Source: a virus
Lineage: Duplodnaviria; Heunggongvirae; Uroviricota; Caudoviricetes
Strand: one strand, 5' to 3'
DNA: 4,851 bases
Virus record (IMG/VR): IMGVR_UViG_2740892230_000008
The translations under genes were made by a program, and so were the position numbers. Shown here in pieces: positions 1 through 766 of this stretch (the stretch's first letter is position 1; every line of letters starts with the position of its first letter). Below the pieces are notes generated by a model that saw nothing but the letters and a program-made list of their open reading frames with translations, was not told the origin of the DNA and did no database searches.

Positions 1-331
1 TTTCCGCGTTACCCGCAGCGTTAACGGTGATGGTATGTCCATGTGAGCCAATCGCAACGGAGTGCGTATGAGCACCAATACCGACAGTATGTGCGTGTGC
101 ACCTGCAGATGCGGCTGTGCCGCTGACACTATGAGTGTGCGCTCCTGCAGCACTTGTATTCACACTGGCCGCAGACACTACCTTATGTACTGACCCATTT
201 TGTGACCACTGGCTGACTGCTGATGCGCCTGTGACACTATGAGTATGGTTTCCAGCACTTGCGGCTGTACCGCTCACACTGTGCGTATGCGCCCCGATGT
301 TATTCGTGGATTTAGTGCCGTAATCAAACGA
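1..331 (-). CDS. stf: side tail fibre protein fragment, C-terminal His-box region (partial; no stop in window, bounded by N run)
   Basis: Seen: reverse-strand translation from 331 down to 1 is open for 110 codons: [110 protein letters not shown]. Repeated GAHTHS boxes; last 60 nt are an inverted copy of 4792-4851 with 2 mismatches. Absent from the ORF track because it has no stop inside the window. Established: His-box C-termini are typical of lambda Stf / T4 gp37-like fibres. Frame differs from fragment 342-766. Confidence 0.8.
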
Positions 332-341
332 NNNNNNNNNN
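332..341. other. run of 10 N (probable scaffold gap of unknown true length)
   Basis: Seen: 10 N. The coding frame changes across it, and the downstream fragment restarts at a position homologous to 296-626. Confidence 0.7.
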
Positions 342-766
342 ATGTGCGCCTGCGCTTGCAGCAGTGCCGGACAGCGAGTGGGTATGAGCACCATCTGATG
401 ATGTCTTCCCTGCATTACGAGTCTGGCCACTACCGCTTGTTGTGCTCATAATCCCCGCGCTTAGATTTGAAATCGCAGTATAACCATTAGGAAAAATGCT
501 CGTGTTCGTGCCACCAAATGCACCGGAACTCTTGTGTTGGTGCGCACCGGCACTATTTGCTGTCCCGCTAATACTATGGGTATGTGCACCAGTGTTATTC
601 GTGGATTTAGTGCCGTAATCAAAAGATGATGTGGTTTTCGTCCCCAAATCCGTACTGGATGCGCTGGCGCTGTGGGTATGCGATTTAATGCCATCCTGTT
701 CCTGAGACAATACGGCACGACCACTGGCGGGCTTGCCCTTAATCGTCCAGCCACGCATATCAGGGA
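342..766 (-). CDS. stf: side tail fibre protein fragment (tail-collar-like end plus His boxes; partial, bounded by N runs)
   Basis: Seen: corresponds to ORF-track 324..758 (-), but the frame is open upstream to 766 (PDMRGW...), and the track's terminal V plus stop at 324-329 come from reading through the N run. Protein [67 protein letters not shown]...[18 protein letters not shown]. First ~200 nt are a near-identical inverted copy of plus 4306-4500. Confidence 0.8.

What the first reader, a model, noticed from the sequence alone, without database searches (positions are those of the whole stretch)
1..766. Tandem same-strand alternative C-terminal cassettes with different segments between conserved His boxes
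Seen: fragment 1-331 restarts at [11 protein letters not shown], homologous to 296-626 of the adjacent fragment, so the two are alternative versions of one region, not consecutive parts. Conserved GAHTHS boxes bracket unrelated inserts in the three copies: [50 protein letters not shown] in 342-766, SVTGASAVSQWSQNGSVHKVVSAASVNTSA in 1-331, and [51 protein letters not shown] in 4540-4700. Inference: conserved boxes with hypervariable inserts suggest recombination linkers that swap receptor-contact loops.
Basis: partly seen in the sequence, partly recalled or inferred. Interest (0 to 1): 0.5.

Follow-up and report, generated by a model that had tools for sequence, protein, structure and literature searches.

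The report
Tail-fibre tip alleles joined by gaps
The two "tandem cassettes" are pieces of different prophage side-tail-fibre genes placed side by side across a 10-N gap, and the conserved His boxes around unrelated inserts are the already known iron-binding motifs and exchangeable receptor-binding tip of T4 gp37 / lambda Stf-type fibres.

Summary
The quoted peptides, His boxes and three unrelated inserts are all present. The "tandem same-strand" layout is not a genomic feature. The window is seven fragments joined by exactly 10 N each, drawn from at least four different stf alleles. Neighbouring fragments overlap in gene coordinates, and the window folds back on itself. Fragment 342-766 is 100% identical to one stf gene of E. 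coli 55989. Fragment 1-331 is 99.1% identical to the stf of strain 2013C-3264. The third copy is 99.9% identical to a second stf gene in 55989, about 590 kb from the first. None of 5,426 complete E. coli genomes holds 1-766 as one collinear stretch. All 120 homologue clusters examined carry one insert. The region aligns end to end with the solved T4 gp37 receptor-binding tip (2XGF, E = 1.6e-78). The boxes are its seven iron-binding HxH motifs, and the insert replaces the receptor-contacting tip. DNA mosaics show cassette boundaries at box 1 and at box 3 or 4, and one shaft allele and one Tfa chaperone occur with five to seven insert types. The recombination reading is therefore supported, but it was published for T-even adhesins (Tétart 1996, 1998). 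Low interest.

The parts
1..331 (-). Fragment of a 'B-type' stf allele, gene nt 2650-2980 of a 3027-nt gene. It runs from SFDYGTK to NAAGNAE and lacks the last 47 nt of the gene. HxH boxes at 281-292, 239-250, 131-142, 89-100, 62-73 and 35-46.
   Evidence: 99.1% over 331 nt to stf of E. coli 2013C-3264; coordinates; same tip in phages 2H10, PhiR29_1/2 and SPF_0923
149..238 (-). Variable tip insert, B type (SVTGASAVSQWSQNGSVHKVVSAASVNTSA)
332..341 (.). Run of 10 N: a join between non-contiguous fragments, with the flanking reading frames out of phase
342..766 (-). Fragment of an 'A-type' stf allele, gene nt 2510-2934. It runs from PDMRGW to GTAASAGAH. HxH boxes at 672-683, 576-587, 534-545 and 378-389.
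   Evidence: 100% over 425 nt to the bio-side prophage stf of E. coli 55989; 100% aa in phage mEp332
393..533 (-). Variable tip insert, A type (KSSGAFGG...GKTSSD, 47 aa)
767..776 (.). Run of 10 N flanked on both sides by the same 14 nt (ACGCATATCAGGGA), so the two fragments overlap and nothing is missing between them
   Evidence: gene nt 2510-2523 present on both sides
777..1928 (-). stf shaft and collar fragment (A/B type, gene nt 1373-2523), containing two Phage_fiber_2 repeats
   Evidence: 99.1% to 55989 and 98.9% to 2013C-3264; Pfam on the intact homologues
1939..2175 (-). stf shaft fragment of the C allele (gene nt 1390-1626). It is an alternative branch that overlaps both neighbours in gene coordinates.
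   Evidence: 100% to the trp-side stf of 55989
2186..2579 (-). Ala/Ser-rich stf shaft fragment (gene nt 1052-1444)
   Evidence: 98.2% to 55989
2590..3588 (+). stf shaft fragment of a fourth ('D') allele (gene nt 962-1960), joined head to head with 2186-2579, which is its 83% reverse-complement homologue. This is the fold-back point of the window.
   Evidence: 99.6% to IMG/VR prophage loci L043, L021 and L014
3599..4851 (+). C-type stf 3' part (gene nt 1872-3124). Its first 87 nt repeat the last 87 nt of the previous fragment at 96.6%. Collar starts at 4194, SFDYG at 4461, and the seven HxH boxes lie at 4404-4817. It stops 47 nt before the gene end, at the same homologous point as window position 1.
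   Evidence: 99.9% to the trp-side stf of 55989; coordinates
4554..4706 (+). Variable tip insert, C type ([11 protein letters not shown]...IQTQSA, 51 aa)
   Evidence: 100% aa in Escherichia phage 204576

Best explanation
The window is not one stretch of genome. It is a chain of seven separately assembled pieces of lambdoid side-tail-fibre (stf) genes joined by 10-N placeholders, most likely a short-read scaffold from an E. coli sample carrying several lambdoid prophages or several strains. The pieces come from at least four stf alleles. Fragments 1-331 and 342-766 are the same gene region from two different alleles, so the 'tandem cassettes' are an assembly artefact.

The biology underneath is real and ordinary. 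Each stf gene ends in a T4 gp37-type receptor-binding tip made of a collar and a trimeric needle stapled by seven HxH motifs, the 'His boxes'. In T4 each motif, contributed by three chains, coordinates one iron ion. The distal tip is formed by the segment between the third and fourth HxH motifs of the seven; the finding calls these box 2 and box 3 because it counts from the first GAHTHS. That segment is the hypervariable insert and contacts the receptor. In T4 and lambda the receptor is OmpC/LPS and OmpC respectively; for these three variants it is unknown.

Shown here: the inserts are mutually unrelated alleles at one position. They sit in a DNA framework that is nearly identical between alleles. 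The divergent block starts right after the first GAHTHS box and ends at the next GAHTHS box or the one after it. Inserts reassort freely with shaft alleles and with one Tfa chaperone type.

Inferred: homologous recombination between co-resident or co-infecting phages and prophages, using the conserved needle sequence on each side, swaps the tip and so changes host range without disturbing trimerisation or chaperone recognition.
For: Artefact:
- Six runs of exactly 10 N delimit seven fragments. The left half is a diverged reverse complement of the right half, and the ends 1-121 and 4731-4851 are inverted repeats.
- Fragment mapping onto intact genes gives overlapping gene coordinates at every join and best matches to different alleles: A 100%, B 99.1%, C 100% and 99.9%, D 99.6%.
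- 14 identical nt flank the 767-776 gap, and 87 nt at 96.6% flank the 3589-3598 gap.
- The best genome matches to 1-766 span 519 bp, and no genome of 5,426 covers more than 80%.
- E. coli 55989 carries the A and C alleles in separate J-lom-stf-tfa modules about 590 kb apart.
- Genomes hold up to 6-7 such copies. Many database homologues are 'partial' proteins on 0.5-2 kb contigs, so these genes routinely break assemblies.

Biology:
- End-to-end alignment to 2XGF, E = 1.6e-78.
- Pfam phage_tail_N, Phage_fiber_2, Collar and Phage_fiber in the intact homologues.
- Seven HxH motifs in each intact Stf tip, as in gp37.
- H929/H931 are iron ligands and tip residues 933-949 are essential (PMC6957217). 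HxH motifs bind iron and are conserved in lambda (PMC11705849).
- One insert per protein, and about a dozen unrelated insert families in all (11, further types).
- Alleles A and B are 96-100% identical on both sides of a ~230-nt block that cannot be aligned.
- Breakpoints lie at the boxes, and the same insert occurs with different flank haplotypes.
- One exact shaft 40-mer occurs with at least 5 insert classes, and one Tfa cluster with 7.
- Each tip is found once per genome in sequenced phages.
Against: The source record was not found in genome contigs, viral contigs or metagenome contigs. The nature of the N runs (scaffolder gaps or some other concatenation) is therefore inferred from the sequence, not read from a record. 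I also cannot tell one multi-prophage genome from a strain mixture.

Breakpoints at the boxes would also arise without preferential crossover there, if selection simply keeps the tip diverse while recombination homogenises everything else. The data show where the mosaic boundaries are, not how often crossovers start in the boxes. No receptor or iron binding was measured. The AF2 monomer model was uninformative.
Confidence: 0.9

Rival explanations
1. The arrangement is real. The source genome carries a promoterless, truncated second tip cassette directly downstream of the first on the same strand, as a silent donor for gene conversion in the manner of pilS/pilE or vls antigenic variation.
For: The two fragments are on the same strand and adjacent in the window. 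The conserved boxes on both sides of the insert would provide homology for conversion.
Against: An N gap separates them and they are out of frame. They belong to different alleles that each exist as complete single-tip genes. No complete E. coli genome of 5,426 has the collinear arrangement. All 120 homologue clusters have one tip. Every other join in the window also shows overlapping gene coordinates, including a head-to-head fold-back.
Confidence: 0.02
2. The window is an invertible multi-cassette region (Mu G, P1 C, e14 P or p15B Min type), in which a Gin/Cin/Pin invertase brings alternative fibre C-termini into register.
For: The window has copies in both orientations. A frameshifted recombinase gene lies downstream of tfa in strain 2013C-3264. 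e14 and Qin Pin systems act on stf genes (PMC12529663).
Against: No invertase gene, no tfa gene and no e14-type crossover site (0 matches at up to 3 mismatches) in the window. In invertible segments each alternative C-terminus carries its own tfa and lies in inverted, not tandem, orientation. Here the 'inverted' copies are whole 5'-truncated genes joined head to head across an N gap, each matching an ordinary single-copy stf elsewhere.
Confidence: 0.02
3. The three inserts are sequential domains of one long fibre protein.
For: None beyond the adjacency in the window.
Against: Every intact homologue has one insert and seven HxH motifs. In each listed phage record the tip matched at one place only.
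Confidence: 0.005
4. The N runs mask short stretches of an otherwise contiguous real locus.
For: A tool description notes that some stretches in the collections are masked as N.
Against: Sequence on the two sides of the gaps repeats itself (14 nt exact; 87 nt at 96.6%; about 285 nt of gene coordinates at 332-341) and switches allele. This is incompatible with a 10-nt mask inside collinear DNA.
Confidence: 0.02
5. The hypervariability is produced by a diversity-generating retroelement, as for the Mtd tail-fibre tip of Bordetella phage BPP-1.
For: It is a receptor-binding tip with extreme local variability.
Against: The inserts differ in length (30-51 aa) and cannot be aligned; they are not point variants at adenine-templated sites. 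No reverse-transcriptase ORF or template repeat is present in the window or annotated in the regions fetched around the three reference stf genes.
Confidence: 0.005

Closest known systems
T4 gp37 long-tail-fibre receptor-binding tip (PDB 2XGF; Bartual et al. 2010)
   Same: The 224 C-terminal residues of the intact homologue align end to end (E = 1.6e-78). Shared features are the collar, seven HxH motifs, the C-terminal NTVKNIAFNYIVRLA and a variable segment at the distal tip position. In gp37, H929/H931 bind iron and tip residues 933-949 are needed for receptor binding (PMC6957217).
   Different: The tip inserts are unrelated in sequence to T4's and to each other, and range from 30 to 51 aa against 32 in T4. 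The fibre belongs to a lambdoid siphovirus side tail fibre, not a myovirus long tail fibre. Receptors for these variants are unknown.
Lambda side tail fibre Stf with Tfa (Hendrix & Duda 1992; Montag et al. 1989, as cited in PMC11338833)
   Same: The intact homologues have the prophage tail fibre N-terminal domain (PF08400) and the gene order J-lom-stf-tfa. Stf is known to be homologous to, and functionally exchangeable with, the gp37 C-terminus.
   Different: The window holds only 5'-truncated internal and 3' fragments from several alleles, with no N-terminus, no stop codon and no tfa.
Motif-mediated recombination in T-even adhesins (Tétart et al. 1996, 1998; Trojet et al. 2011, PMC3157838)
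   Same: The mosaic boundaries at the boxes seen here fit it.
   Different: The best-documented experimental case (PMC3157838) concerns the glycine-rich motifs of gp38. From memory, the term 'His boxes' for gp37/Stf-type fibres comes from Tétart 1996 and Sandmeier 1994; I could not retrieve those texts (one search found none).
Invertible tail-fibre segments (Mu G/Gin, P1 C/Cin, e14 P/Pin, p15B Min)
   Same: They also provide alternative fibre C-termini for one constant N-terminal part, and Pin systems occur next to stf genes (PMC12529663).
   Different: They need an invertase, inverted crossover sites and a tfa for each cassette, none of which is present here. In those systems the alternatives sit together in one locus. 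Here they are in separate prophages.

Membership tests
T4 gp37-type receptor-binding tip (collar, needle, tip) | Full-length sequence homology to the solved tip (2XGF) | tested here: met
   phmmer E = 1.6e-78, query 1-224 against chain 35-242. The window copies are 99-100% identical to the proteins tested.
T4 gp37-type receptor-binding tip (collar, needle, tip) | Seven HxH motifs spaced along the needle | tested here: met
   Seven in each intact Stf and in gp37. The window copy 4404-4817 has all seven; 342-766 has four complete motifs (a fifth is cut at the gap) and 1-331 has six, because both are truncated.
T4 gp37-type receptor-binding tip (collar, needle, tip) | Phage tail collar domain upstream of the needle | tested here: met
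   PF07484, E = 6e-12 to 1e-10; window 4194 onward
T4 gp37-type receptor-binding tip (collar, needle, tip) | Iron ions coordinated by the HxH motifs in a homotrimer | not testable with these tools
   Known for T4 (PMC6957217, PMC11705849). The monomer AF2 model was unusable (pLDDT 44.8).
Lambdoid side tail fibre Stf | Prophage tail fibre N-terminal domain, and the gene lying between lom and tfa downstream of J | tested here: met
   Met in the intact homologues. The window itself lacks the N-terminal third of the gene and all neighbouring genes.
Invertase-driven tail-fibre switching (Gin/Cin/Pin/Min) | Inverted crossover sites at the constant/variable boundary | tested here: not met
   The e14 site TTGGTTTGGGAGAAGG has 0 matches at up to 3 mismatches. 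Only the e14-type site was tried.
Invertase-driven tail-fibre switching (Gin/Cin/Pin/Min) | Invertase gene, and a tfa gene inside each alternative cassette | tested here: not met
   No such ORFs in the window. The fragments stop 47 nt before the stf stop codon.
Tandem silent-cassette / gene-conversion locus | Physical contiguity of the expressed copy and the silent copies | tested here: not met
   N gap, frame shift and different alleles. No collinear match in 5,426 complete genomes.
Diversity-generating retroelement target | Template/variable repeat pair with adenine-specific differences, plus a reverse transcriptase | tested here: not met
   The inserts cannot be aligned and differ in length. 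No RT ORF in the window.

The most novel reading that the evidence does not exclude
The source organism really does carry a same-strand archive of truncated tip cassettes next to an expressed stf gene, used for gene conversion at the His boxes. The N runs would then hide true junctions and would not be false joins.
Probability: 0.02. Interest if true: 0.7.

Novelty: already known. Interest (0 to 1): 0.1.

Why it matters
It matters mainly as a caution. Runs of N in a window mark joins whose contiguity is unproven, and multi-copy mosaic genes such as prophage tail fibres are where assemblers produce chained or fold-back scaffolds that look like cassette arrays. The real biology is useful but established. 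The gp37/Stf-type tip is a natural plug-in module: one needle and chaperone framework carries about a dozen unrelated inserts. That underlies host-range evolution and current engineering of chimeric lambda Stf particles (PMC11338833). The boundaries seen here, right after the first GAHTHS box and at the following GAHTHS or GAHAH box, could guide the design of tip-only chimeras.

Tried and rejected
- Source record: searched with a pattern spanning an N junction in genome contigs and viral contigs, and with exact 40-mers in viral contigs and metagenome contigs. No 4851-base contig and no locus with N runs was found, so the source stays unidentified.
- AlphaFold2 monomer model of the C-type tip with a 37-sequence alignment: mean pLDDT 44.8, pTM 0.17. 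This is useless for an intertwined, metal-bound trimer, so no fold search was run.
- Literature search for 'His boxes' with 'tail fiber' returned nothing. The Bartual 2010 paper is not held. Its content is cited second-hand through PMC6957217 and PMC11705849.
- Invertible-segment reading rejected (no invertase or tfa ORFs).
- DGR reading rejected (no RT ORF).
- 'Sequential domains' reading rejected.
- 'N runs are masks' rejected.

Full report
WHAT THE WINDOW IS. The 4851-base window contains six runs of exactly 10 N (332-341, 767-776, 1929-1938, 2176-2185, 2580-2589, 3589-3598), which cut it into seven fragments. Each fragment is open in one frame and encodes part of a lambdoid side tail fibre (Stf). 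The five left fragments code on the minus strand and the two right ones on the plus strand. The window is therefore a fold-back: 2186-2579 is an 83% reverse-complement homologue of the start of 2590-3588, and the ends 1-121 and 4731-4851 are inverted repeats at 89%.

MAPPING THE FRAGMENTS. I mapped the fragments onto three intact stf genes from complete genomes. In gene coordinates:
- 2186-2579 covers nt 1052-1444.
- 777-1928 covers nt 1373-2523.
- 342-766 covers nt 2510-2934 and is 100% identical to the bio-side prophage stf of E. coli 55989.
- 1-331 covers nt 2650-2980 and is 99.1% identical to the stf of strain 2013C-3264.
- 1939-2175 covers nt 1390-1626 and is 100% identical to the second, trp-side stf of 55989.
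- 3599-4851 covers nt 1872-3124 and is 99.9% identical to that same trp-side gene.
- 2590-3588 covers nt 962-1960. It is only 90% identical to that gene but 99.6% identical to a fourth allele found intact in IMG/VR prophage contigs.

Neighbouring fragments overlap in gene coordinates at every same-strand join, and the sixth join (2580-2589) is the head-to-head fold-back. At 767-776 the same 14 nt stand on both sides of the gap. At 3589-3598, 87 nt are repeated at 96.6% identity. Both window ends stop at the same homologous point, 47 nt before the stop codon, where all alleles become identical. This is the signature of unitigs from a repeat-rich assembly graph chained by a scaffolder, not of contiguous DNA. 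From memory, some assemblers write 10 N for joins of unknown or negative size; I could not verify this for this record because the source was not found.

THE OBSERVATION. The inserts are unrelated: local alignment scores are indistinguishable from shuffles. Fragment 1-331 does restart at SFDYG, which lies at 626-612 in its neighbour. The adjacency, however, is across an N gap, the frames are out of phase, and the two pieces belong to different alleles. A search with 1-766 against 5,426 complete E. coli genomes gave no place covering more than 80% of the query. The best places span 519 bp, which is 342-766 running straight into the last ~94 nt of 1-331. The 'tandem same-strand cassettes' are therefore not a feature of any genome examined. 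The 'alternative versions of one region' part is correct.

WHERE THE ALLELES REALLY LIVE. In strains 55989 and 2013C-3264 each allele is a complete stf gene of 1008-1056 codons in the standard order J, lom, stf, tfa. Strain 55989 carries the A and C alleles in two prophages about 590 kb apart. Genomes carry up to 6-7 matching places. Each of the three tips also occurs, once per listed record, in sequenced phages:
- A in mEp332 (100%) and ev099.
- B in 2H10, PhiR29_1/2 and Salmonella phage SPF_0923 (99.1%), and at 88% in the T4-like myovirus vB_EcoM_G2285.
- C in Escherichia phage 204576 (100%).

WHAT THE HIS BOXES AND INSERTS ARE. The last 224 residues of the intact A-type protein align end to end with the crystal structure of the T4 gp37 receptor-binding tip (2XGF, E = 1.6e-78). 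Pfam finds phage_tail_N, Phage_fiber_2, Collar and the 14-residue Phage_fiber repeat. gp37 and each intact Stf have exactly seven HxH motifs. In T4, seven iron ions line the needle. H929 and H931 are iron-binding histidines, and three H929 residues, one from each chain of the trimer, form one of the metal sites (PMC6957217; PMC11705849, which also notes conservation in lambda). From the alignment, with numbering checked against G921/H929/H931 in PMC6957217, the variable insert replaces gp37 residues 932-963, between H929/H931 and H966/H968. This is the 'tip subdomain', where alanine substitution of I933, N937, G938, G940, G942, G943, S947 or Y949 abolishes plaque formation. The inserts are thus the receptor-contacting end of the needle. 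The boxes are first of all structural metal sites.

A search of the 5.8-billion-protein collection gave 1598 homologues, and the 120 best cluster representatives were examined. The 102 with both anchors have one insert, a segment length of 88-109 aa and five HxH motifs in that segment (one has four). The other 18 also have one insert on inspection. There are about a dozen unrelated insert families: 11, with further types.

RECOMBINATION.
- Alleles A and B are 96-100% identical over about 2.6 kb upstream and through tfa downstream, but cannot be aligned over about 230 nt around the insert.
- At nucleotide level, the divergent block begins immediately after the first GAHTHS box in every class. 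It ends at the next GAHTHS box (A, C and SMTF classes) or at the following GAHAH box (B class).
- B and C are identical through box 1, and A and C are identical from box 3 onwards.
- The A-type insert occurs with two different right-flank haplotypes, each shared with other insert classes (L001 against L010).
- Loci selected only for sharing one exact 40-mer in the shaft carry at least five insert classes.
- One Tfa cluster (over 90% identity) follows seven insert classes.

This is a clear mosaic with junctions at the boxes. It is consistent with exchange of the tip alone inside a constant needle and chaperone framework. It does not prove that crossovers start preferentially in the boxes, because diversifying selection on the tip combined with homogenising recombination elsewhere would give the same picture. 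[quoted passage not shown] From memory, Sandmeier (1994) and Haggård-Ljungquist et al. (1992) described the same box and mosaic pattern across lambda, P2, Mu, P1 and T4 fibres.

RIVALS.
- Invertible G/C/P/Min-type segment: excluded. The window has no invertase, no tfa and no e14-type crossover site, and each 'copy' matches an ordinary single-tip gene elsewhere.
- Silent-cassette archive: not supported by any complete genome.
- DGR: does not fit inserts of different lengths that cannot be aligned.
- N runs as masks over collinear DNA: incompatible with the duplicated flanks.

VERDICT. Interest is low. The useful by-products are a caution about N-joined windows and explicit tip-cassette boundaries for fibre engineering.

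Noticed in passing
L066 1077-5300 (NZ_CP025903.1 1548418-1552641); homologue clusters P0029 and P0031: In E. coli 300709 the C-type stf 3' part (99.9% to window 3599-4851) is the end of a 4224-nt ORF annotated as terminase gpA. This looks like an in-frame terminase-large-subunit::stf fusion left by a deletion in a prophage remnant. Similar 348-aa products with a terminase domain plus Collar and Phage_fiber are seen on hundreds of contigs.
   Followed up: partly
MK327933.1 157337-157666 (hit H66); compare window 1-331: The B-type tip, including its insert, is 88% identical at protein level in the T4-like myovirus vB_EcoM_G2285. The same tip module is therefore shared between lambdoid siphoviruses and T-even myoviruses.
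   Followed up: no
window 3251-3290; loci L004-L050: An exact 40-mer from the D-type shaft occurs in 47 IMG/VR prophage contigs. The 20 or so of them with a complete tip region carry at least five unrelated tip inserts, so shaft and tip reassort independently.
   Followed up: yes
window 1685-3036, both strands: The Ala/Ser-rich shaft region is open in several frames on both strands (for example a 326-aa ORF at 1685-2665 +, antisense to stf). This is most likely a compositional artefact of the biased repeat sequence and not overlapping genes.
   Followed up: no
L002 6051-6640 (NZ_CP027544.1 3815412-3816001): A frameshifted 'recombinase family protein' (possibly Pin-like) lies just downstream of tfa in the prophage carrying the B-type stf. 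It may be a relic of an invertase next to a fibre locus that now has a single fixed tip.
   Followed up: no
L034 and L050 tip regions; P0116: Some alleles duplicate the SFDYGTK motif ([19 protein letters not shown]) or have extra or fewer HxH repeats downstream of the insert. Needle length therefore also varies by gain or loss of repeat units.
   Followed up: no
window 777-1928 (-), repeats at about 1687-1773 and 1819-1905: Two copies of the Phage_fiber_2 repeat (TKKGI[IV][21 protein letters not shown]) at 79% nucleotide identity, with related copies in fragments 1939-2175, 2186-2579 and 2590-3588. These internal repeats are further sites where assemblies can mis-join.
   Followed up: partly
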